Shown: one piece after another, positions 341-13,610 of the stretch
Layout: each line of letters starts with the position of its first letter
Numbering within the stretch: position 1 is the first letter of the stretch
Assembly (NCBI GenBank): GCA_036444275.1
Contig: JAZGAD010000003.1
Coordinates: 1-18,142 of the forward strand
DNA from: Candidatus Hydrothermarchaeales archaeon
Lineage (GTDB): Archaea; Hydrothermarchaeota; Hydrothermarchaeia; Hydrothermarchaeales; JAZGAD01
DNA: 18,142 nt
Direction: 5' to 3'
The notes under the pieces: model-generated
Seen by the model: the letters and a program-made list of their open reading frames with translations, nothing else
Told to the model about the DNA's origin: nothing
Databases searched by the model: none
Made by a program: the position numbers and the translations under genes

Positions 341-459
341 TCCTCGCACCTCTGCTCAAATATACTGGCTGTATCCAAGATCAAGGCTACCCCTCCATCC
401 CCGAGGAGGGTAGAGCACTAGAAACCATTATACCGCCCTGGATGCCTCACTATCTCCTC
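322..459 (-). pseudogene. cheA: Remnant of the extreme C-terminus (P5/CheW-like domain) of histidine kinase CheA
   Basis: Frame reads EEIVRHPGRYNGF*CSTLLGDGGVALILDTASIF, matching the CheA consensus ending GFSGATILGDGxVALILD. In-frame TAG at 418-420, no upstream cheA body, and it sits directly before cheC as in canonical che operons. Confidence 0.75.
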
Positions 460-800
460 GTGTATGACGGACGTTATATAGGTTTCATGTTATGTTATAT
501 TGTCTTATAAGATAAGAAGACCTGTGCACATAAATGTCTTTTGGAATGGATTGTCATGATTACGGGAAGCTTTCCAGCTTCTTCTCTCGGAGCTGTTAAC
601 CATACATTATAAGAGACCCTAGGCATGTGACTACTGAGGGATGACAAGTAGGTTCGTCCCATCCCTGCTAATAAAGTTCAAGGAGATGCATAAGAGAGGA
701 TAGAATAGACTAACGGGGATGGGGTCCTCCTGCCCATCTGTTGTAGGCTGAGCCAAATCTACATCGATTCTGGGTTGGGTAATATTTATACCACCTCGTT

Positions 801-1121
801 GTGACACTATGTATAGGAATAGGGGGCAGCCTGTTGGAAATTGGGGTTGAGGTCACTAGGGATGTGACGCCTAGTGCAATATTAGGCGTAGTCCTCATGG
901 TAGCTGTCACCGTTATTGTGGTGCTCTACTACGAGAGGGAGTGGGTGCTGGAGAGGCTGGAGGGCCTAGGCATCTTACGGGCGTTTGGGTTTATATTAAT
1001 GGCCTTAGGCGTGTCCTTAGTCATTGCTGGCCTCCTATGGACAGAGTTCGCCCTCATCGTCGTAGCCGGCTTCATACTCGTAGCACTGGGATACTTCCTA
1101 GCAGAGAAAGCCAGCGAATAG
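801..1121 (+). CDS. Small hypothetical membrane protein (about 3 TM helices); true start may be TTG at 835
   Basis: Three hydrophobic segments (SAILGVVLMVAVTVIVVLYY; AFGFILMALGVSLVIAGLLW; FALIVVAGFILVALGYFLA). TATA-like TTTATA at 785-790 and AGGGGG before TTG 835. Confidence 0.7.
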   Translation: MTLCIGIGGSLLEIGVEVTRDVTPSAILGVVLMVAVTVIVVLYYEREWVLERLEGLGILRAFGFILMALGVSLVIAGLLWTEFALIVVAGFILVALGYFLAEKASE

Positions 1122-1304
1122 GGGGGATAGAATAGGAATAGGAATCAGCATACACCCCCCCCCAAGTGGCACTAGCATAGGTTAGGCTAGGTTAGCTTCT
1201 CTGATCCTAGGACACAGTATATCCTATTCTATCTTGGCCTCGATTTCTACCATCACTCAAACCTCTTATTACGAGCCAGTATCTGGGCAGAATGAGGGCT
1301 CAGA

Positions 1305-1517
1305 TCAGACCTTGATGACGTCCATGGCCTTGCGCCACTTGTTGCCATCCAGCTCCATTACCCAGACCTTACTCACCTTTGGATTCTTCTTGGCGAGGGA
1401 GACCACCTCTTCCCTCGTGGGCATCGACGGGGTCTTCTTTAGGGTGACGAAGCGCTTAGCCTCAACACCCTTCCTGAACCAGCCCCTTATTCTCACATCC
1501 CTACCGAGGTATTCCAA
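1305..1517 (-). CDS. Small basic hypothetical protein, possibly frameshifted at the 5' end (alternative ATG at 1540)
   Basis: 70-aa ORF with protein-like composition and codon usage, co-oriented with and just downstream of cheY. Confidence 0.6.
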   Translation of the reverse strand: MEYLGRDVRIRGWFRKGVEAKRFVTLKKTPSMPTREEVVSLAKKNPKVSKVWVMELDGNKWRKAMDVIKV

Positions 1518-1595
1518 GCGTTGACATAGAACATCTTCATCTCTACACCACTCACTCTTTAGATGGATGAAGAGGTGGAGGGAAGCTAGGATAAT

Positions 1596-1958
1596 CTATA
1601 GACCCAGGGCCCTCTTGACTGCTTCCCTTATCATCAAAGGATGTAACGGCTTTGTGATGTAGTCCTTTGCCCCTGCTTTAATGGCATCGTTGACCATATC
1701 TGGTTGACCTAATCCGCTGAACAAGATTATCTTGGCATTGGGATCGTATTCTATGATACGCCTAGTCGCGTCAATACCGTCCACACTTGGCATGATGACG
1801 TCCATGAGTACCAACTCTGGTTTTAGCTCCGTGTATTTCTTAATGGCCTCCTCGCCGTCAGCCGCCTCACCCACGATCGTGTGACCCCCATGGACCAGTA
1901 TCTCCTTCAGCAAGTCACGCACAGAAGACGAATCGTCAACGACCAACAACCTAGCCAT
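1596..1958 (-). CDS. cheY: Chemotaxis response regulator CheY (stand-alone receiver domain)
   Basis: VVDD acidic pair, phospho-acceptor LMDVIMP, SGLGQ, GAKDYITKP. Bacillus/archaeal-type CheY with cheC nearby. RBS GGGAG. Confidence 0.9.
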   Translation of the reverse strand: MARLLVVDDSSSVRDLLKEILVHGGHTIVGEAADGEEAIKKYTELKPELVLMDVIMPSVDGIDATRRIIEYDPNAKIILFSGLGQPDMVNDAIKAGAKDYITKPLHPLMIREAVKRALGL

Positions 1959-2097
1959 ATCCCTTACTCCCTATTCAGCTTAACTTCCTGCTATAACTTC
2001 TAGCCTCCCATATTCCCATAGGTTACAATGTTAGGTTCTAGATGAGAGCCTTTATATTTTGTCATCACACTTCTTGCACACACAAGAAGCATGTGGT

Positions 2098-2108
2098 AAA
2101 AAAGAAAA
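2098..2108 (-). terminator. Oligo-T archaeal terminator after the 2116-2394 gene
   Basis: TTTTCTTTTTT on the minus strand, 7 nt after the TAA stop. Confidence 0.5.
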
Positions 2109-2115
2109 GGGGGGT

Positions 2116-2394
2116 TTATTTCGTAATAAGGTCGATAGCCCCGAGTATAGTCCCTACTGCTACAGCGACGAATCCTATCACTGAGAGTATCAATGTAACC
2201 CAACTGGTAACAAAGTGTATACTAGGCAGAACTCTGACTGTAAGAGTCAGTACTCCTCCCAATAGGTAAGCAAGTGCTCCGGCCATGATGTAGTCAAAGT
2301 TTTTCCCTAACTTATCGGCTGTTCCAGCGTATTTCAGTAGAACCCCCACTACAAATAGTGTCACCGCCAGCGATACTTCCCCTACTAATACCAT
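2116..2394 (-). CDS. Small hypothetical membrane protein (3 TM helices)
   Basis: Three hydrophobic helices. RBS GGGGTGA (2401-2407) is best spaced for ATG 2394 (the track uses 2400). Oligo-T terminator downstream. Confidence 0.8.
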   Translation of the reverse strand: MVLVGEVSLAVTLFVVGVLLKYAGTADKLGKNFDYIMAGALAYLLGGVLTLTVRVLPSIHFVTSWVTLILSVIGFVAVAVGTILGAIDLITK

Positions 2395-2410
2395 ATGCAT
2401 TCACCCCAAC

Positions 2411-2443
2411 GAGGCATGGTTTTTGCCTCCATAAATAATTTTC
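2411..2443 (-). promoter_or_regulatory. BRE/TATA promoter followed by inverted repeat GAGGCA-N7-TGCCTC (candidate operator)
   Basis: Minus strand reads GAAAATTATTTAT G GAGGCA AAAACCA TGCCTC GTT GGGGTGA ATG. Confidence 0.45.
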
Positions 2444-2714
2444 TATTTGATCATCACAAGGGCGAGCATAGATAGGTGGAGGGGATGAATATCAGGGCTT
2501 TATTTAATTCTTCCATCACCTTTCCACGGTCCTTTGAGCCACCTCTGGGTATAATCTCAAGGAGTATTGCCCCTAAATGTCATCGAACTTAGGATTTGTT
2601 TTAGAAGGATTTAAATATCTCTCTAGACGATAATTTGATTCGCCTGCATTGGTTATGAATATGGGGTGGCCTAAGGCTAATACTGAATGGGAAATATAGC
2701 CGTAGGTAAACGAG

Positions 2715-3443
2715 ATGACGAGGACGAAGAGCGGGGTACCCGGCTTGGACGAGGTCCTTGAAGGAGGGATCCCGGAGGGCTCCACTATCTTGGTAACTGG
2801 GGGCTCAGGCACTGGAAAGAGCATCCTCTGTTCTCAGTTCCTGTACAATGGCATAACCCAGTACGGAGAGAACGGGGTATTCGTCAGCTTGGAGGAGAGA
2901 CCCCAGGATCTAAGGGCTGAGATGGCCGAGTTCGGCTGGGACTTCCAAAAGCTTGAGGACGAAGGGAAACTCTTGCTTATAGATGCCTCCACTATAAAGA
3001 TCCCTGTCAAGGTGGATAAGGGCTTCGCGTGGGGCCTAGGCTATGACATCGAGAAATTGATGACTCTCGTCTCCGCGGGGGTGAAGAAGATCGATGCTAG
3101 AAGGGCAGTGGTAGATTGTCTCCCAGCTTTAGAATTCGGCCTTGAAAACACGCTGGATGTCAGGAGGGCTATATTCAACCTAGCCTCTCTCTTGCTGGAA
3201 CTGGAGTGCACCTCCCTTATGACTACTGAGACTATTGATCCAGATAGGATAAGCAGGTATGGCGTGGAGGAATTCATCCTCAAAGGGGTGATTGTTCTTG
3301 ACCTGATATTAAAGGAGGGGAAGATAGTAAGGACCATCACCGTCAGGAAGATGTGCCGTGTGAGGCATTCCCTCGAGACCTATCCCTTCACCATCGACGA
3401 GAACGGCATCACTATTTACCCCGGGGAAGGTGTATACATCTGA
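2715..3443 (+). CDS. Single-domain KaiC-like / RAD55-family RecA-superfamily ATPase
   Basis: SGVPGLDEVLEGG N-terminus, Walker A GGSGTGKS, VSLEE, Walker B AVVD, SRYGVEEF, and a C-terminal RKMxxxxHS..YPFTIDENGI pattern. Confidence 0.9.
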   Translation: MTRTKSGVPGLDEVLEGGIPEGSTILVTGGSGTGKSILCSQFLYNGITQYGENGVFVSLEERPQDLRAEMAEFGWDFQKLEDEGKLLLIDASTIKIPVKVDKGFAWGLGYDIEKLMTLVSAGVKKIDARRAVVDCLPALEFGLENTLDVRRAIFNLASLLLELECTSLMTTETIDPDRISRYGVEEFILKGVIVLDLILKEGKIVRTITVRKMCRVRHSLETYPFTIDENGITIYPGEGVYI

Positions 3444-3593
3444 CTCGATTTACGTGTGCAGCGTCAGAGCCTATTCTAGGTGTTGGGCTCGAACCGTCCT
3501 TTGTGCACAGTCTTTTTCACTTCCATGACATTCATGTCCACGAACTCCAGCCTCCAAGCGGTACTTGCATATATTCAAACGGTCCTGAGTAGG

Positions 3594-3621
3594 TGTCAAT
3601 AAATCAGTCCTATTATTGACA
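3594..3621. repeat. Perfect 9-bp inverted repeat TGTCAATAA-N10-TTATTGACA
   Basis: Arms read directly at 3594-3602 and 3613-3621, in intergenic DNA. Confidence 0.7.
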
Positions 3622-3849
3622 GCAAATACAAGCCGAAAATTGAGGAGATTTACTCTTCGAATACGAGGAATATTACGCCCTCACTGTAACAAAAGATATA
3701 AGTGTTAGAATCTCTATTCATCCCCCAGTGATCCGTATGGTTGGCCTAAAAGAGTGGGCTAAAAAGAAATGCGGGAGGAATCCACCTGATATCCCCAAGC
3801 AGGATGTCATAAGGGACACCTAGGAGAATAGTCGTTAGCCAAATCATGA

Positions 3850-4362
3850 ATGAAATATAGGAAAGGAAGCCGCGCCATGAGAAAGAAACTGGACCTCAGA
3901 GAAAAGTTAAAGATGCTATCACCAGAGGCAGCAGGGACGACGCCCTTACTAAAGGCTGTTAACGCTGCAGAAATAGAGCTCGGAGAACCAAGAACCAAAC
4001 CAACATTAGGTGACTTCGAACTCGAACTTGATGAAATCACTAGTAAAGCATCGTTTTTGGATAAGACGAAGGGAGACCGGTTGGAGCAAATCCTCTCCCT
4101 ACAGGGTGGTAATGATATAAAATGGACAGCCTTGGTCGATCCCTTCGCTGAGAAATTTGCATCTATGGTGAGCGATGGATTAACAGAGATAAAGACCCTA
4201 CCCCCAATCTTTGGCTCAAGATTCACAGAGAGCTCCATCCTCGCGTCCCACATCAAGGGCTACACTTTCACTCTGGCCAGCTACGAGGTAGATTTCGACA
4301 AGCTGGTAGAAATCTTCACTGCCGCTCTCAAGTACGCCAAGGAAAAACTACATTTGGAATAG
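3850..4362 (+). CDS. Hypothetical protein, possibly 5'-truncated or frameshifted
   Basis: 170-aa ORF with normal Lys/Glu/Leu-rich composition, converging on hisS (15-nt gap). No family recognised. Confidence 0.65.
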   Translation: MKYRKGSRAMRKKLDLREKLKMLSPEAAGTTPLLKAVNAAEIELGEPRTKPTLGDFELELDEITSKASFLDKTKGDRLEQILSLQGGNDIKWTALVDPFAEKFASMVSDGLTEIKTLPPIFGSRFTESSILASHIKGYTFTLASYEVDFDKLVEIFTAALKYAKEKLHLE

Positions 4363-8692: not shown

Positions 8693-9619
8693 TTAAAAAT
8701 CTTTTGCGGAATCCGTAATCCCTAGACGAGTGTTGCTGTAGAGCTCCGGAATATCCGCAATCGTTACGTATCGAATCTCATATGTATCCTCAAGGATGGT
8801 TAAAAACCTGTCCAGTTCTCCGAGTAGGTGGGGGGTTAATTTTTGTGGATGCGCAAACATCACGAAGGGCACCTCTTCTTCTGCGCATCTATCTGCAAAG
8901 CCGGTTAATATCGATACGTTCTTCAGCCTCGCTTCAGAGGTAACTACAGGTATCTCAACTACACCGTTTTCCATGTAATAAGGCCGGGGGTTTGAAAAAT
9001 CCTGATAAATACTGCTGTCGATCTCTATTCCAGCCTTTTGCAGTACTTCGAAATAAGCTGGATTTCTAGTCCAGTTTACCACGAGCGACGGCGCTCTAAA
9101 TATCCTAGGACGATATGCATTACTGATACTCTCCATGATGACACGTTGGGTGATTAATAAGTCCCGGTAGAAAGCATCCTCGCTTTTGAAACTTTTTTGC
9201 CATTCTTCATCCCATGAGTAGTTGTAGATACTGCCTATCAAAGCCGCTTCCCCTTCATCAAATAAGGGAAAATTATGGTAATAGGTATGCATGCCCAGGA
9301 GGTAACCCCGGGAATATATCTCCTGTATCTTATCCGGGTACTTCTCAGCTGTTACTCCAAGGACAAAAAAAGTTGCAGTGGCATTATGTCTTTCCAAAAG
9401 CTCAAAGATAGCTGGCAAGGTTCTACCCCCCTGGTTATCCCGCACGTCTTCATAGTCAAAGGTTAGAGCCACGTAGAGCTCTTTCACATCATACTCTTCC
9501 ACGCTCGGTGTATGAACCTCTTGCATGGAAAGGACTGCATCCTTTTTATTCCCAACTATAAATATAAACAAAGCAAAAAGTAGAAGGAGAAAGAAGGCTG
9601 TGACAATCTTTTTGTCCAT
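8693..9619 (-). CDS. Membrane-anchored polysaccharide deacetylase (CE4 / NodB homology)
   Basis: N-terminal TM anchor, LTFDYED, ATFFVLG, HTYYH (HxxxH), FRAP, DSS, EIPV, HP. ATG abuts the upstream TAA (TAAATG). Confidence 0.9.
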   Translation of the reverse strand: MDKKIVTAFFLLLLFALFIFIVGNKKDAVLSMQEVHTPSVEEYDVKELYVALTFDYEDVRDNQGGRTLPAIFELLERHNATATFFVLGVTAEKYPDKIQEIYSRGYLLGMHTYYHNFPLFDEGEAALIGSIYNYSWDEEWQKSFKSEDAFYRDLLITQRVIMESISNAYRPRIFRAPSLVVNWTRNPAYFEVLQKAGIEIDSSIYQDFSNPRPYYMENGVVEIPVVTSEARLKNVSILTGFADRCAEEEVPFVMFAHPQKLTPHLLGELDRFLTILEDTYEIRYVTIADIPELYSNTRLGITDSAKDF

Positions 9620-10438
9620 TTAACCAAGCTCTTCTCTCCGCCCCCTTATAATCACGGCAAGCAACAAGACTATTATAACGGCTGCTGCAATGGTGAGATA
9701 CCTCTTGACATCCGTGGGAGCCGGGCCTGCGCCCATCTCATCTGCTTTAGAGAGAAGCCTGTTAAGGGCGTTTGTAGCTATCTGGGCATTACTCTTAGCC
9801 GTCTCAATCTCCCCATTTTCATGAGCGCTTTCCGCTAGATCTATCTGTGTTCTAGCGTCTTGTAATTCAGCCTCCAATTCAGTAGTGGCCACACCTTTAG
9901 CCTTAAGGGAATCGATTTTTGTTCTAGCTTCGTTGTACTTGGCCCATGCATCATCTATAGCAGTCACAGTCTGCTTAATCTCTATATCTGTTACCGTCAG
10001 CGTCAGTGTCCCGTCATCTTGCCATTCAGGCTCATCACCCTTGTATTTCACGTAGGTGTTAATGGATAGAACGGTTATGGTAGTCATCTTCTCAACCGTG
10101 GGCGCCCAACCGCTAATTCTGATCTCGATTTTTCTCACACCATCTACTGGCAATGGAATCTGGTAGCTCTGTACGCCATATGTCTCTGGAGGTGCATCGT
10201 CGATCTGTATTTCAAGCCTAGGACTTGTCAGGTCCGTGGTATAATTTAGCTTCGCTTCCTCTGGTACTACACCTACCTTCTCAAGAGTCATGCTAGCCGC
10301 CACAAGATCGCCTATTTTTGCTGTTGTCTGGTCTAATTTAGTGTCACTTGGTTTAAGATAATCAGGGACCACAGCAGAAGCGACTCCAATACTTACTACA
10401 ACAAGCGCAAGAGCGAGTAAATAAATACCTATCCGCAT
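9620..10438 (-). CDS. Cell-surface single-pass membrane protein: signal peptide, beta-rich domain, coiled coil, C-terminal TM anchor and short tail RGRREELG; start 10438 or 10453
   Basis: MRIGIYLLALALVVVSIGVASA signal peptide, heptad-rich helical segment (AIDDAWAKYNEARTKIDSLK...ELEAELQDARTQIDLAE), TM LTIAAAVIIVLLLAVII. GGAGG 8 nt before ATG 10438. Confidence 0.85.
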   Translation of the reverse strand: MRIGIYLLALALVVVSIGVASAVVPDYLKPSDTKLDQTTAKIGDLVAASMTLEKVGVVPEEAKLNYTTDLTSPRLEIQIDDAPPETYGVQSYQIPLPVDGVRKIEIRISGWAPTVEKMTTITVLSINTYVKYKGDEPEWQDDGTLTLTVTDIEIKQTVTAIDDAWAKYNEARTKIDSLKAKGVATTELEAELQDARTQIDLAESAHENGEIETAKSNAQIATNALNRLLSKADEMGAGPAPTDVKRYLTIAAAVIIVLLLAVIIRGRREELG

Positions 10439-10452
10439 CCTTCGTTCCTCCA

Positions 10453-11457
10453 TCAAAACAACGGTTTTATATCTCCAAGCAAGTCCTCCAACTCCGATGA
10501 TGCCTTTTCCACTCCTTCTTGAATTTCGAATCTCTGAGCGATGTCCTTCAAACCTGTTATCATCAATCCTATATTTAAATATTTAGAATGAGGTTCATCT
10601 CTGAAGACATAGTCCACTTCACACCCAAATCTGCCCTTAACCCATTCCTTGGCGAAGCTCTGCCCATATACGTTGCTCAGGTCCCCATAGATTATGAGGT
10701 GTAATTTCTCTGCTTTCTCCATAGAAAGGAAGATGTGATCCTTGAGCATCTTGTCTAGGATATCCTTTATGGATATGTGCTCGGCCTTAAGGCGCATGTA
10801 GCCGGCGGTGGCAATCTTATCTCTAGCTATCTCCAGTATCTTAGCTGAATCTATCGTACTCAGGAACTTGAATATCGCCTCGTTGATTATCTTGTAGGCA
10901 GAGAATATGTCCTCGCCATGCTCAGTGAGCACGTTATTATCGAAGACTATTGCTCCATCCACTAGGTCAATGATGCGCGCTAGGTTCGCATATGTATTCT
11001 TGAGGTAAAGGGTTCCCTCAGCCTTGGAGGGAAGCATCAAGACCCCGATTATAGGTACATTATAAATAAACCTGAGCCTCTCGGCAATGAAAGGATATCC
11101 ACCAGTGCCAGTGCCACCACCTAAGCCGGCGATAAGGAAGAATATCTCAGGCTTCTTCAGGTTCACCTTCCTTATGGTATTCATGGCGAGCTCGGATTCC
11201 TCTTGCATTATCTTCTTCCCGAGCTCTATATCGCCACCTGTGCCATGCCCCTTTGCCCTGCTGCTTCCTATGAGCACCCTGCTCCTCAAAGGTATCGAGT
11301 CCATAGAAGTCAATGCATCCGAGGTATCTATTGCTACGCCCTTTGCAATTCCCCCTCCTTTAGATAACTTGCTGATCAAGCTACTTAAGAGATCCTTGCG
11401 ATAAAAGGATTCCACTACCTTGCAACCTGCACCTCCGATGCCGATGAGAGAGAGCAT
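10453..11457 (-). CDS. Divergent tubulin/FtsZ-superfamily GTPase (non-canonical CetZ-like)
   Basis: GIGGAGCK, GHGTGGD, tubulin signature GLGGGTGTG, EG, FDNN. T7 region shortened and reads IDSAK. Confidence 0.88.
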   Translation of the reverse strand: MLSLIGIGGAGCKVVESFYRKDLLSSLISKLSKGGGIAKGVAIDTSDALTSMDSIPLRSRVLIGSSRAKGHGTGGDIELGKKIMQEESELAMNTIRKVNLKKPEIFFLIAGLGGGTGTGGYPFIAERLRFIYNVPIIGVLMLPSKAEGTLYLKNTYANLARIIDLVDGAIVFDNNVLTEHGEDIFSAYKIINEAIFKFLSTIDSAKILEIARDKIATAGYMRLKAEHISIKDILDKMLKDHIFLSMEKAEKLHLIIYGDLSNVYGQSFAKEWVKGRFGCEVDYVFRDEPHSKYLNIGLMITGLKDIAQRFEIQEGVEKASSELEDLLGDIKPLF

Positions 11458-11466
11458 CCTTACCCC

Positions 11467-12609
11467 CTAGAGATTGTCTATGTCCCCCAGGAGATAGTCG
11501 ATGTCTCTTTCCTCCTTCTCTTCGCCGCCTCCAACCCGCCCCTGGATCAGCCTAGCCTTCTCCAACATGCTCTTGACCCTTGGAGCATTAGCAATGCCAG
11601 CTAAAAGCACGACGCATCCCACATAGCTGCTCTTCAGCAATGGATAATCACCCCCCCTAACCTCGGTACCAGTGATGGTACCCTCAAGCCATTCCCTGGC
11701 CTTCTCTATCCCCTTTCTGTCTAACTGATCTGGGGGACCAGCGATTATTATAAGCCCCTTATTGGCAGTTGTATACTCGCAGGGTAGAAGCAGTCTTCCC
11801 TTCACGGCGCGCTTCATCACAGATAATACCCTCGATGCCTTGCCTATCTCGTACTGCTTCTTCCGGAAGAGCCTTGTAAACAGGCCTTCCCTCTTAACCA
11901 TCTCTGAGGCATAGCCGATGCTGCATATCCCGCCGCCCCGCATAGTATTTATGACCTCAGAAGCGTCAACCACCATCTCTGGGGCGTGTTTCCTAGACCT
12001 TATCTCGCCGGATCTACAGATTATCCCTATCCTCTTCACCACTTCGGCATTTATTCTATCATATGCCTCACGAACGCTTTCCCCGGAGCGCAGAAAGGCA
12101 CCGTTGTCCACCAGTATGGTAGCATCACAGCTAGGTAGCAGAGCCTTTAGACTCCTAGCTGCATTCAAAGTGTAGATATCCCCCTCGTTCCCAGCTGGCA
12201 GGACCCCGACAGCATATACCGGCTCATCGTATACCTTCTTCAGATGCCTTGCAATTATTGGCATAGCGCCGCTTCCAGTACCGCCGCCCAGGCCAGACAC
12301 TAGTAAGAAGGCATCTAAATTACTCACATTAGACCTTGAAACCCTATTAAGGATTATATCGGCTTCATCCTTAGCAATCTCCGCCCCCTTCTTGTTATCA
12401 GCTCCAACTCCATGCCCCTTAACTTCTGTCTCCCCTAAAAGAATTCTATCTTCTTGCGGGATGTATTGCAAGCCCATTAAGTCAGAGACAGCAGTGTTTA
12501 CGGCGATTGACTCGAAGGTATGGGGAACATGGCTTTTTCGGTCATCAATTAAAAAATTATCCGCAATCTTACCACCAGCCTGACCCAAGCCTATGATTAG
12601 AACCTTCAT
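11467..12609 (-). CDS. cetZ: CetZ-family tubulin-like GTPase
   Basis: GLGQAGGKIAD, AVNTAVSDL, VKGHGVGADN, GLGGGTGSG, VDN, T7 VVDASEVINT, VRGGDYP. These are CetZ rather than FtsZ signatures. RBS GGAGG at 12617-12621. Confidence 0.92.
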   Translation of the reverse strand: MKVLIIGLGQAGGKIADNFLIDDRKSHVPHTFESIAVNTAVSDLMGLQYIPQEDRILLGETEVKGHGVGADNKKGAEIAKDEADIILNRVSRSNVSNLDAFLLVSGLGGGTGSGAMPIIARHLKKVYDEPVYAVGVLPAGNEGDIYTLNAARSLKALLPSCDATILVDNGAFLRSGESVREAYDRINAEVVKRIGIICRSGEIRSRKHAPEMVVDASEVINTMRGGGICSIGYASEMVKREGLFTRLFRKKQYEIGKASRVLSVMKRAVKGRLLLPCEYTTANKGLIIIAGPPDQLDRKGIEKAREWLEGTITGTEVRGGDYPLLKSSYVGCVVLLAGIANAPRVKSMLEKARLIQGRVGGGEEKEERDIDYLLGDIDNL

Positions 12610-12645
12610 TATTCTTCCTCCGTTGAATCAAAAATTCCCGTTAGA

Positions 12646-12676
12646 TATAATAAGCTTTCTCCTTATAAATATTTTC
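12646..12676 (-). promoter_or_regulatory. Two tandem BRE/TATA candidates upstream of cetZ
   Basis: Minus strand GAAAATATTTATAA (12663-12676) and GAAAGCTTATTATA (12646-12659). Confidence 0.55.
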
Positions 12677-12839: not shown

Positions 12840-13610
12840 TCATTGGAACAAATCCTCTACTCCGAGGTCCTTAAAAAATCTGAAGTTCTTGACCATTATA
12901 CGCGACTCCAACTTAGTGATAGTGTCAACAAAGCCGTACCAGTATACCACTAATCCTGGGCCAAGAGTCTCAAGGCACTGGGCGAACTGCTTATCTAAGT
13001 AATATCTATGTAGCTCCTCATCTCCAAAACTGGCTTTGCTCTCTGCCCAGTAGATTCTTACATCTTCTACCACGAGCGGATCCTTCAGCAGAAAGTCCGG
13101 AGTCTTAGTATTTACAGCTCTAGGCGCCTCTTTTTCAGAGGTGAATCCTACACCCATCTTAGTTAGCCATTTTTCAAGGATGTCCTCCCCAAGCTTGCCC
13201 CATTCGCTCTGGGCGCTATGCGCCCATGGGGAGTACAAGTAATCTTCCCTTAAGGCCTCCTCTACCTCTGCCTTTAATCTTACATCACGAATGCGCGATG
13301 GATCCTTTAGAGCTCTTTTTCTAGCGTTCGCCGAAAAGTCTAATTTCTCTAGGAGTAGTAAAGCAATCAAAGCTGATGGGAAATTCAGCTTCTTAGCCAA
13401 GCTAAGGATGGACTCGCCCTTGCTCCAGCTCTCCTTAAGAGAGGGCGAATCATTCTTGATCTTGTGGTATCTCTTTTTAGCATCCCTCACCCGTTTTTGA
13501 TTCAGAATTATGGAAAGAACACTCTTTTGAACACCGTATCTGCCAGAGAGTTCTTCTATATTGGACTCTGTAACCCTACTATAAATCTCAGCGTACTTCT
13601 TTTCCTCCAT
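12840..13610 (-). CDS. C15orf41/CDIN1-family (TPD domain) PD-(D/E)xK nuclease-like protein
   Basis: N-terminal helical/HTH-like region, G..GE..L..WL, KTPDFLL, WAESKASFGD, GPGLVVYWYGF. Confidence 0.85.
   Translation of the reverse strand: MEEKKYAEIYSRVTESNIEELSGRYGVQKSVLSIILNQKRVRDAKKRYHKIKNDSPSLKESWSKGESILSLAKKLNFPSALIALLLLEKLDFSANARKRALKDPSRIRDVRLKAEVEEALREDYLYSPWAHSAQSEWGKLGEDILEKWLTKMGVGFTSEKEAPRAVNTKTPDFLLKDPLVVEDVRIYWAESKASFGDEELHRYYLDKQFAQCLETLGPGLVVYWYGFVDTITKLESRIMVKNFRFFKDLGVEDLFQ

What the first reader, a model, noticed from the sequence alone, without database searches (positions are those of the whole stretch)
10453..12609. Tandem archaeal tubulin paralogs with an alpha/beta-tubulin-like catalytic split (DxxE vs DxxK)
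Seen: two tubulin-superfamily genes 9 nt apart, both with intact GTP-binding loops (GQAGGK/GGAGCK, GHGxGxD, GGGTGxG, DN). The first has a full T7 region, VVD215-A-S-E218-VINT. In the second, the stretch from the H7 Asn to the T7 Asp is 10 aa instead of 27, and it reads ID203-S-A-K206 (Lys codon at 10840-10842). Known: this acidic residue activates GTP hydrolysis in the neighbouring subunit (FtsZ DxxD, Haloferax CetZ1 E218, alpha-tubulin E254), while beta-tubulin has Lys there and leaves the N-site GTP unhydrolysed. Adjacent divergent CetZ paralogs are known in euryarchaea. Inference: the second protein binds GTP but cannot activate hydrolysis. The pair may form an alternating heteropolymer, or the second may act as a cap or nucleator, which would be convergent with eukaryotic tubulin specialisation.
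Basis: partly seen in the sequence, partly recalled or inferred. Interest (0 to 1): 0.85.

Follow-up and report, generated by a model that had tools for sequence, protein, structure and literature searches.

The report
CetZ plus a T7-less CetZ-like partner
An archaeal cytoskeleton gene (CetZ) is followed by a divergent copy that keeps its GTP pocket and tail but has lost the loop that switches on GTP hydrolysis in a neighbour, so it probably sits at one filament end; the reported Lys is a one-genome change.

Summary
Two tubulin-superfamily genes lie 9 nt apart on the minus strand: a canonical CetZ (380 aa, "A") and a 334-aa CetZ-like protein ("B") lacking 17 residues between helix H7 and the T7 motif. 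K206 does align with the catalytic Glu218.

K206 occurs in 1 of 83 orthologs, while 53 of 83 have Asp or Glu, and the 8 nearest relatives all have Glu.

What is conserved is different:
- All 83 orthologs share the T7 deletion.
- B is found in 34 of 38 genomes of the phylum (source names say Hydrothermarchaeota).
- B directly follows CetZ in 30 of 30 assessable loci and precedes a bitopic membrane protein.
- B's GTP loops and C-terminal LLGDI tail are well conserved. Its T7/H8 and the homolog of CetZ's tail-binding groove are among its least conserved parts.

A complex prediction (score 0.66, best control 0.00) puts CetZ's T7 on B's GTP face and B's tail in CetZ's groove.

Best reading: B is a one-sided, filament-end subunit (cap, seed or anchor), confidence about 0.45. 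It is a new CetZ-derived subfamily and has not been tested biochemically.

The parts
11467..12609 (-). cetZ-A: canonical CetZ, 380 aa (P0001)
   Evidence: ORF. Pfam Tubulin 3e-31 and CetZ_C 2.1e-62. In 25 orthologs, D215 and E218 are invariant and mean column identity is 81%.
11944..11979 (-). CetZ-A T7/H8 segment, residues 211-222 (E-M-V-V-D215-A-S-E218-V-I-N-T)
   Evidence: E211, V214, D215, E218, I220, N221 and T222 are invariant in 25 of 25 orthologs. In the complex model, residues 211-213, 215-218 and 220-221 touch B's nucleotide face.
12136..12159 (-). CetZ-A helix H5 residues 151-158, one wall of the predicted tail-binding groove
   Evidence: These residues contact B residues 326-333 with the lowest expected error in the model. 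A151, R152, L154, K155 and L157 are invariant in 24 genome-matched sequences.
11542..11592 (-). CetZ-A C-terminal helix residues 340-356, the other wall of the predicted groove
   Evidence: Contacts at 340-342, 345-346, 349-350, 352-353 and 356 with B's tail. B has no counterpart of this helix; hhalign leaves gaps there.
11458..11466 (-). 9-nt spacer between cetZ-A and B, containing a GGGGT Shine-Dalgarno-like run
   Evidence: Sequence. A 9-nt spacer is also seen in G022.
10453..11457 (-). B: CetZ-like paralog with the T7 loop deleted, 334 aa (P0002)
   Evidence: ORF. Pfam Tubulin only. AF2 model pLDDT 87.3. Best structural match is CetZ1 4b46, with Z 32.8, rmsd 3.4 and 308 residues aligned. 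82 orthologs found. Family found in 33 of 38 phylum genomes, plus one fragment.
10822..10854 (-). B residues 202-212: remnant T7 (2 residues) plus helix H8, including D203
   Evidence: AF2 secondary structure gives H7 as 184-201 and H8 as 204-211. Mean pairwise identity is 0.23, with only 8 of 324 equal-length windows lower.
10840..10842 (-). AAG codon of K206, the positional equivalent of CetZ E218
   Evidence: K in 1 of 83 orthologs, D or E in 53 of 83.
10456..10497 (-). B C-terminal tail residues 321-334 (S-E-L-E-D-L-L-G-D-I-K-P-L-F)
   Evidence: L326 scores 1.00, L327 0.92, D329 0.84 and I330 1.00 in 24 genomes. CetZ-A has the same LLGDI core. The tail docks on CetZ-A in the model.
9620..10453 (-). 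Bitopic membrane protein (P0122). Its ATG overlaps B's TGA stop by one base (tgATG).
   Evidence: Homologs lie directly downstream of B in 28 of 30 loci. The C-terminal E-L-G is invariant. The AF2 model shows TM 2-23, a beta-sandwich at 33-155, a 3-helix bundle at 157-241 and TM 249-276.
12617..12669 (-). Putative expression signals of the unit: TATA-like TTTATAA (12663-12669) and GGAGG (12617-12621) before the cetZ-A ATG
   Evidence: Read directly. These are consensus resemblances only. No transcript data exist; no RNA run was listed.

Best explanation
Shown. The window carries an operon-like unit: cetZ-A, then B, then a bitopic membrane protein. A is a canonical, slowly evolving CetZ with an invariant T7 D..E pair. 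B belongs to a discrete, fast-evolving CetZ-derived subfamily found across one archaeal phylum; source names on the orthologs say Hydrothermarchaeota. B keeps the GTP-binding loops and a CetZ-type C-terminal LLGDI tail, has the full two-domain CetZ fold in the model, and lacks the T7 loop.

Inferred. B binds GTP and uses its nucleotide-bearing ('top') face and its tail to bind the T7 ('bottom') face and the tail groove of CetZ-A. CetZ-A can therefore sit on B and supply the catalytic Glu for B's GTP. B's own bottom face and groove are degenerate, so nothing polymerises below B. B would thus be a one-sided, terminal subunit that seeds, caps or anchors the T7-exposing end of CetZ filaments. It may work together with the co-encoded membrane protein.

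Lys206 is a private Glu-to-Lys change of this lineage. It only adds to an already weakened activator face.
For: - Family and distribution. 82 orthologs score 213-531 bits, then there is a sharp drop to canonical CetZ at 122 bits. The profile search of 1.84 billion representatives returns 7 long and 3 fragmentary family members at 127 bits or more that match beyond the GTPase domain. The best other hits, at 173 bits, match only profile positions 4-202.
- Presence. B is found in 33 of 38 phylum genomes and 18 of 21 high-quality ones, plus a contig-end fragment in G022.
- Synteny. A CetZ-A ortholog (67-83% identical) lies directly upstream of B in 29 of 29 assessable loci; L014 ends at a contig edge. 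The same holds in G022. The membrane protein lies downstream in 28 of 30 loci.
- Fold. CetZ1 4b46 is the best match, with Z 32.8 over 308 residues and Foldseek E 3.8e-28, TM 0.76.
- Asymmetric constraint in 24 genome-matched pairs. Well-conserved parts of B are T1 0.83, T3 0.78, T4 0.90 and tail 0.58. Poorly conserved parts are T7/H8 0.23 and H5 0.26, against a protein mean of 0.47. In CetZ-A, T7/H8 is 0.81 and the H5 groove 0.90, against a mean of 0.76.
- Relaxed catalytic position. The acidic state at position 206 changed at least 7 times on the family tree. In CetZ-A, D215 and E218 are invariant in 25 of 25.
- Complex prediction. Scores in the three runs were 0.65, 0.66 and 0.67, with best control 0.00. 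The runs agree in at least 85% of contacts and partner pLDDT is at least 86. The tool's mark was reached by 58 of 80 solved complexes and 2 of 110 mismatched pairs. CetZ-A residues 211-221, 298-309 and 315-317 touch B residues 46, 48, 68-76, 146-150 and 181-185. B residues 321-334 dock on CetZ-A residues 151-158 and 340-356.
- Literature. The CetZ1 tail is conserved, is needed for rod formation, and appears to contact the adjacent subunit (passages of 10.1101/2024.04.08.588506). A subunit with a blocked bottom face caps FtsZ filaments (passages of 10.1101/2020.02.25.965095).
Against: - There is no biochemical, genetic or expression evidence for these proteins. No RNA run was listed.
- The complex score may partly reflect memory of solved CetZ and FtsZ protofilaments. 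My own alignments and the riding GTP also depart from the tool's calibration.
- Only one job was allowed. The reverse orientation (B on top of A), B-B and A-A complexes were never scored, so the orientation preference rests on what one model chose in three seeds.
- 53 of 83 orthologs keep an acidic residue at position 206, and 33 of 83 keep both acidic residues. Some activator function may therefore persist in many lineages.
- Part of B's bottom face, helix H10 (G265, A269, W272), is at least 90% conserved.
- B is not sister to CetZ-A in the tree. It groups weakly (SH-aLRT 88) with the third paralog, CetZ-C. CetZ-C could therefore be B's real partner, and this was not tested.
- In a sister order (G037) the cluster is A, membrane protein, then a tubulin-like gene, with no B. 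The membrane protein is therefore not specific to B.
Confidence: 0.45

Rival explanations
1. A and B form an obligate alpha/beta-tubulin-like heterodimer that builds an alternating heteropolymer. B's Lys206 keeps the GTP under it unhydrolysed, as beta-tubulin K254 does for the N-site.
For: K206 aligns with E218 in three alignments. The two genes are always adjacent. A hetero-interface is predicted with a score of 0.66 against a best control of 0.00. Both proteins keep GTP loops.
Against: Lys occurs in 1 of 83 orthologs, while D or E occurs in 53 of 83, and the 8 nearest relatives have E. An alternating polymer needs B's bottom face and A's top face to co-evolve, yet B's T7/H8 is among its least conserved segments, with 8 of 324 windows lower. 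The interface the model found is the opposite one: A's T7 on B's GTP. B lacks the helix that forms the tail groove.
Confidence: 0.08
2. B is an independent CetZ paralog that forms its own homopolymers with its own, possibly slower, GTPase activity. It would serve a separate function, as CetZ1 and CetZ2 do in Haloferax. Adjacency would then reflect only shared regulation or an old duplication.
For: The GTP loops are strongly conserved. An acidic residue is kept at position 206 in 53 of 83 orthologs. The complete two-domain fold is present. Paralogs with distinct roles are known in Haloferax (abstract of PMC13556191 in the listing).
Against: A homopolymer constrains both longitudinal faces. In B only the top face and tail are constrained, whereas in CetZ-A both are. 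The T7 loop is reduced to 2 residues. The catalytic position changed state at least 7 times.
Confidence: 0.2
3. B does not enter filaments. It acts as a GTP-dependent sequestering or regulatory partner that binds free CetZ-A monomers through the same top-face and tail contacts and so sets the pool of assembly-competent CetZ.
For: It uses the same interface and conservation data as the best explanation. Modelling work on FtsZ notes that assembly assays cannot tell cappers from sequesterers, though GTP turnover might (passages of 10.1101/2020.02.25.965095).
Against: Nothing in the sequence distinguishes this from capping. An A-B dimer still exposes A's normal top face, so it should be able to add to, or start, a filament.
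Confidence: 0.15

Closest known systems
CetZ family (Haloferax volcanii CetZ1 and CetZ2, PDB 4b46 and 4b45; Methanosaeta CetZ, 3zid)
   Same: These are the best sequence hits in the PDB for B's GTPase domain (4b46 at 7.8e-33). They are also the best structural matches over both domains (Z 31-33). B shares the short conserved hydrophobic C-terminal tail. P0001 is a plain member (CetZ_C 2.1e-62).
   Different: B gives no Pfam CetZ_C hit at E up to 1. It lacks 17 residues of H7/T7 and the long C-terminal helix. Its catalytic Glu position is variable. It forms its own clade on a long stem (1.01 substitutions per site, support 100).
Alpha/beta-tubulin, and the bacterial BtubA/B and Asgard AtubA/B heterodimers
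   Same: Two paralogous GTP-binding subunits are encoded side by side. One has a non-acidic residue at the T7 activator position in this genome. The folds are related (Z about 26-28 for 9f6t, 2btq and tubulins).
   Different: The Lys is not a family trait. The whole T7 loop is missing rather than substituted. The predicted contact is A's T7 on B's GTP, not B's T7 on A's GTP.
Gamma-tubulin as a minus-end nucleator and cap (analogy, from recall)
   Same: A paralog would offer its nucleotide face to the T7-side face of the first polymer subunit and so sit at the T7-exposing end, possibly attached to an anchoring structure.
   Different: There is no sequence-specific kinship and no ring complex. 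The analogy rests on one predicted orientation and on textbook knowledge that I did not check in a paper.
FtsZ 'bottom cappers' (the MciZ-FtsZ complex)
   Same: A subunit whose bottom face cannot accept another subunit binds the filament's bottom end and blocks elongation (passages of 10.1101/2020.02.25.965095).
   Different: There the block is a small inhibitor peptide bound to normal FtsZ. Here it would be built into a dedicated paralog. Whether CetZ filaments grow at the bottom end is not known to me.

Membership tests
Tubulin/FtsZ superfamily (PF00091) | GTPase domain with T1 and T4 (GGGTGxG) signature loops, scoring above the Pfam cut-off of 33 bits | tested here: met
   P0001 scores 109.6 bits and P0002 107.1 bits. 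The motifs were read. In B orthologs G115 and T116 are invariant, and G113, G114, G117 and G119 are at least 90% conserved, in 83 sequences.
CetZ family, for P0001 | CetZ_C C-terminal domain (PF21011) plus the T7 D-x-x-E | tested here: met
   CetZ_C 2.1e-62. D215 and E218 are invariant in 25 of 25 orthologs.
CetZ family, for P0002 (B) | CetZ_C domain recognisable by sequence | tested here: not met
   No PF21011 hit at E up to 1. None of the 82 listed orthologs carries PF21011 in the precomputed Pfam column, whereas canonical CetZ hits do.
CetZ family, for P0002 (B) | CetZ-like two-domain fold | tested here: met
   4b46 gives Z 32.8, rmsd 3.4 and 308 of 334 residues aligned. 3zid and 4b45 give Z 31. 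FtsZ and tubulins follow at about 26-28. These are based on a predicted model with pLDDT 87.3.
CetZ family, for P0002 (B) | Conserved T7 loop with the catalytic acidic residue (E218 of CetZ1) | tested here: not met
   A 17-residue deletion is present. The T7 loop is 2 residues in the model. Position 206 is acidic in 53 of 83 orthologs and is K in the window.
CetZ family, for P0002 (B) | Phylogenetic placement on the CetZ side of the FtsZ/CetZ split | tested here: met
   B (11 rows, support 100) lies inside the 40-row CetZ-side clade (support 100) when rooted on 10 FtsZ rows. It is not within canonical CetZ. This was a quick IQ-TREE with SH-aLRT support only.
FtsZ (TIGR00065) | Score above the curated cut-off of 295.2 bits | tested here: not met
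   86.2 bits for P0001 and 83.0 bits for P0002.
Alpha/beta-tubulin-type heterodimer with a catalytic split | The non-catalytic residue (Lys) is conserved at the T7 activator position of one partner | tested here: not met
   K in 1 of 83 orthologs, D or E in 53 of 83.
Alpha/beta-tubulin-type heterodimer with a catalytic split | Both hetero-interfaces (A on B and B on A) are conserved and used | tested here: inconclusive
   Only A's T7 on B's GTP face was predicted. B's T7/H8 is poorly conserved.
Filament-end (capping or nucleating) subunit | One longitudinal face competent and the other incompetent; located at one filament end | not testable with these tools
   Conservation asymmetry and the predicted orientation are consistent with this. 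Location and kinetics need experiments.

The most novel reading that the evidence does not exclude
B is a genetically dedicated filament-end subunit of an archaeal tubulin-like cytoskeleton, a prokaryotic functional analogue of gamma-tubulin. It would bind GTP, receive the T7 loop of the first CetZ subunit, clamp that subunit with its C-terminal tail, and be unable to be extended on its other side. It would thereby nucleate and cap CetZ filaments. These may be held at the membrane by the co-encoded bitopic protein, whose cytoplasmic tail ends in an invariant E-L-G.
Probability: 0.25. Interest if true: 0.8.

Novelty: new variant of a known kind. Interest (0 to 1): 0.5.

Why it matters
CetZ proteins control cell shape and motility in archaea, but how their filaments are started, ended or attached is not known.

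This locus offers a paralog, conserved across a phylum and always co-encoded with CetZ, that has kept only one of its two polymerisation faces. It is therefore a natural candidate for a built-in nucleator or cap.

That would show that division of labour among tubulin paralogs (polymer subunit versus end subunit) arose outside eukaryotes. It also gives a directly testable pair of proteins.

The report also corrects an attractive but wrong cue. The Lys that suggested a beta-tubulin-like state is a private substitution.

In two full-text searches and in the passages read of PMC9856176 and PMC9871819, I found CetZ reported in Hydrothermarchaeota but no description of this T7-less subfamily or its gene cluster. 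Those papers' supplementary tables and trees were not seen and may list these sequences.

Tried and rejected
- **Beta-tubulin-like Lys as a family trait.** Rejected.
- **B as a recent tandem duplicate of CetZ-A.** Rejected. B is not sister to A in the tree and sits on a long stem. That tree was a quick search with SH-aLRT support only. One long-branch row (own_C30_409) and six rows of odd composition were flagged.
- **B as a decaying pseudogene.** Rejected. ORFs are intact in 32 of the 33 matches; only G034 (L013) carries an in-frame TAG.
- **Mobile-element context.** Rejected. The neighbours are housekeeping genes: HisRS, prephenate dehydratase, carbamoyltransferase, GARS and KaiC-like.
- **Co-absence of B and the membrane protein in the sister order.** I first read this way, then withdrew it. 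G037 has a diverged bitopic membrane protein after cetZ-A that the A5 profile missed.
- **'B absent from G022'.** Withdrawn. Its first 93 residues sit at a contig end.
- **Fold search for the membrane protein.** It gave only generic beta-sandwich matches (TM at most 0.32). Pfam and NCBIfam gave only sub-threshold coiled-coil hits.
- **Expression.** No RNA holder was listed.
- **Population check of codon 206.** One contig of run X1 spans the stretch with 26 differences. 25 are listed and none lies in 10840-10842, but one is unlisted. The X3 piece over that codon has 10 differences that the table does not show. The check therefore does not settle whether K206 is fixed.
- **Predicted complexes not run.** The reverse orientation, B-B, A-A, B with CetZ-C, and either tubulin with the membrane protein's tail could not be scored, because the cap is 1 job.
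- **Residue-level superposition of K206 on E218 in 3D.** Not possible, because the tools give ranges only. The equivalence rests on three sequence alignments plus the model's secondary structure.
Full report
**What is there.** The minus strand of the window carries a 380-aa ORF (11467-12609, P0001, "A") and a 334-aa ORF (10453-11457, P0002, "B"). They are separated by 9 nt containing a GGGGT run. B's TGA stop overlaps the ATG of a third ORF, P0122 (9620-10453), as tgATG. A TATA-like TTTATAA and a GGAGG precede A; these are consensus resemblances only. The neighbours are housekeeping genes. Composition is even, with GC 0.44-0.51.

**Identity of the two proteins.** A is a canonical CetZ: Pfam Tubulin 3e-31 and CetZ_C 2.1e-62. 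B has the Tubulin GTPase domain (1.8e-30) but no recognisable CetZ_C. Neither protein reaches the FtsZ cut-off, scoring 86 and 83 bits against 295. A and B are 27% identical. B's best solved relatives by sequence are CetZ1 and CetZ2 of Haloferax, matching the N-terminal domain only. An AlphaFold2 model of B built on 42 orthologs has pLDDT 87.3 and pTM 0.86. It matches CetZ1 4b46 over both domains, with Foldseek E 3.8e-28 and TM 0.76. VIA-align gives Z 32.8, rmsd 3.4 and 308 residues aligned, ahead of FtsZ and tubulins at about Z 26-28. In the model, H7 is 184-201, H8 is 204-211, and only two residues link them, so the T7 loop is essentially gone.

**Is K206 the equivalent of the catalytic Glu, and is it conserved?** BLASTP, MAFFT and profile-profile hhalign (probability 100, one 17-residue deletion) all put K206 under E218. 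BLASTP and hhalign also put D203 under D215. I could not superpose coordinates, so the equivalence is alignment-based.
- Among 83 family members (the window's protein plus 82 orthologs of 38-69% identity), position 206 is E in 29, D in 24, a gap in 7, H in 5, T in 5 and L in 4. It is K only in the window's protein.
- Position 203 is acidic in 55 of 83, and both positions are acidic in 33 of 83.
- On a tree built without those columns, the acidic state at 206 changes at least 7 times, with at least 4 changes forced by well-supported branches.
- The window's protein lies in a 9-member clade (support 96) whose other 8 members have Glu.
- In 25 CetZ-A orthologs, D215 and E218 are invariant.

The Lys is therefore a recent, private substitution: AAG differs from the Glu codon GAG by one transition. 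The deletion, however, is shared by all 83.

**A discrete, phylum-wide family.** After the orthologs, scores drop from 213 to 122 bits, where canonical CetZ begins. A profile of the 83 was searched against 1.84 billion representatives. It returned 7 long and 3 fragmentary family members that match beyond the GTPase domain. The best other hits, at 173 bits, match only profile positions 4-202, the GTPase domain. Source names on the orthologs read Hydrothermarchaeota, Hydrothermarchaeaceae or Pyrohabitans.

B is found in 33 of 38 genomes of the phylum, and in 18 of 21 high-quality ones, once per genome. G022 adds a 93-residue fragment at a contig end. The four genomes without B are G004 (62% complete), G011 (93%), and G036 and G037 of a sister order (95% and 81%). 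In a 50-row tree rooted on FtsZ, B is monophyletic (support 100) on a long stem on the CetZ side. It groups weakly (88) with a third paralog, CetZ-C, and not with A.

**Conserved gene order.**
- In 30 loci, a CetZ-A ortholog (67-83% identical) lies directly upstream of B in 29. The 30th locus (L014) ends at a contig edge. G022 shows the same order with a 9-nt spacer.
- A homolog of the membrane protein follows B in 28 of 30 loci. L023 is at a contig end, and none was found in L025.
- In most genomes a third tubulin gene follows. It is a CetZ_C-bearing paralog (6.6e-28). In this genome it lies elsewhere, at C10:31926-33083, with 58% identity.
- In the sister order the cluster reads A, a bitopic membrane protein, then a 341-aa tubulin-like gene, without B.

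**The membrane protein.** P0122 models with pLDDT 90.4 as a signal or TM helix, a beta-sandwich, a three-helix bundle and a C-terminal TM helix. Its short cytoplasmic tail ends in an invariant E-L-G. It has no specific structural relative.

**Asymmetric constraint.** These values come from 24 genome-matched pairs; G034 was dropped because its B gene has an in-frame TAG. Mean pairwise column identity is 0.76 for A and 0.47 for B.
- B's GTP loops are its best conserved parts (T1 0.83, T3 0.78, T4 0.90).
- B's tail is also conserved (L326 1.00, L327 0.92, I330 1.00).
- B's T7/H8 (202-212) scores 0.23; only 8 of 324 windows are lower.
- B's helix H5 (156-163) scores 0.26.
- In A, T7/H8 scores 0.81 and the homologous H5 (151-158) scores 0.90, with five invariant residues.
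- B also lacks the long C-terminal helix of A.
- Against this pattern, B's helix H10 (G265, A269, W272) is at least 90% conserved.

**Predicted complex.** The job used A (25-row alignment), two GTP and B (42-row alignment). The three runs scored 0.65, 0.66 and 0.67 against a best control of 0.00. The runs agreed in at least 85% of contacts, and partner pLDDT was at least 86. The tool's mark was reached by 58 of 80 solved complexes and 2 of 110 mismatched pairs. The tool warns that my alignments and the ligand depart from its calibration, and that likeness to solved protofilaments can produce a pass from memory.
- A's T7 and bottom loops (211-221, 298-309, 315-317) sit on B's nucleotide face (46, 48, 68-76, 146-150, 181-185).
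- B's tail (321-334) lies in a groove of A formed by 151-158 and 340-356, with the lowest expected errors.
- B's own T7 face is free.

Passages of the CetZ1 preprint say the CetZ1 tail is conserved, is needed for rod formation, and seems to touch the adjacent subunit. They also say E218A gives hyperstable polymers.

**Interpretation.** B keeps the 'donor' features (GTP face, tail) and has lost the 'acceptor' features (T7 loop, tail groove). The simplest mechanism is a one-sided subunit at the T7-exposing end of CetZ filaments, acting as a cap, seed or anchor. This resembles the 'bottom capper' idea for FtsZ (passages). By recall only, it also resembles gamma-tubulin at microtubule minus ends. 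It is an inference, and I give it 0.45.

The rivals are:
- an independent homopolymer-forming paralog (0.2);
- a monomer-sequestering regulator (0.15);

**Prior knowledge.** Two full-text searches, together with passages of PMC9856176 and PMC9871819, show CetZ noted in Hydrothermarchaeota and various 'non-canonical' or 'CetZ-like' groups. They give no description of this T7-less subfamily or its cluster. The supplementary trees and tables of those papers were not seen.

**Verdict.** The headline interpretation is not supported, but its fallback (cap or nucleator) is favoured on other grounds. B represents a new variant of a known kind. Interest is moderate (0.5), because all functional claims are computational.

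Noticed in passing
window 9620-10453 (-); orthologs in L007-L035: The bitopic membrane protein after B has a very short cytoplasmic tail ending in an invariant E-L-G at the C-terminus, usually [RK][RK]EELG, in 20 of 20 aligned orthologs. The tail loosely resembles the E-x-L-L-G core of the tubulin tails, which suggests it could be a docking peptide for the CetZ proteins.
   Followed up: partly
L036:8629-9783 (+) in G014; own genome C10:31926-33083 (L039:1849-3084, -): A third paralog, CetZ-C, has a CetZ_C domain. Its T7 reads G-T-T-D or T-A-T-D: the first Asp is lost and the second position is Asp. It usually closes the cluster. In this genome it has moved next to an isopropylmalate-synthase-like gene.
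   Followed up: partly
L038 (G000:C30) 449-4141 (-): The genome has a second tubulin-superfamily cluster. It comprises a 409-aa protein with only the Tubulin domain (2.1e-25), a 479-aa protein with no Pfam hit, and a 245-aa weak Tubulin match (4.3e-08). In the tree the 409-aa protein sits on a very long branch. No protein with an FtsZ_C domain was seen among the 5 PF00091 matches of this 81%-complete genome.
   Followed up: partly
L042 (G037:C1) 568-3504 (-): In a sister order the cluster is cetZ-A, a 283-aa bitopic membrane protein (tail KRKRERL) and a 341-aa tubulin-like gene with a degenerate T4 loop (FGGTGASG). There is no B. B therefore looks like an insertion into, or a loss from, an older CetZ-membrane-protein-CetZ cluster.
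   Followed up: no
L013 (G034:C221:8513-9520): The B ortholog of this genome carries one in-frame TAG. It translates to 255 aa before the stop, and the match continues beyond it. This could be a sequencing error, a pseudogene or a recoding event.
   Followed up: no
window 11462 and 11550-12505: In public contigs laid on the stretch, one run (X2) has a CC insertion in the 9-nt A-B spacer. The near-identical X1 contig has 23 of its 25 listed differences in cetZ-A and only 2 in B.
   Followed up: no
window 12840-13610 (-) and 8693-9619 (-): The unit is flanked upstream by a TPD-motif protein (PF14811, 8.6e-40). Downstream lies a membrane-anchored polysaccharide deacetylase (PF01522, 2.2e-16). In G014 a GT2 glycosyltransferase sits inside the cluster. 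This recalls the published association of cetZ genes with cell-surface sugar genes (abstract of PMC9856176).
   Followed up: no
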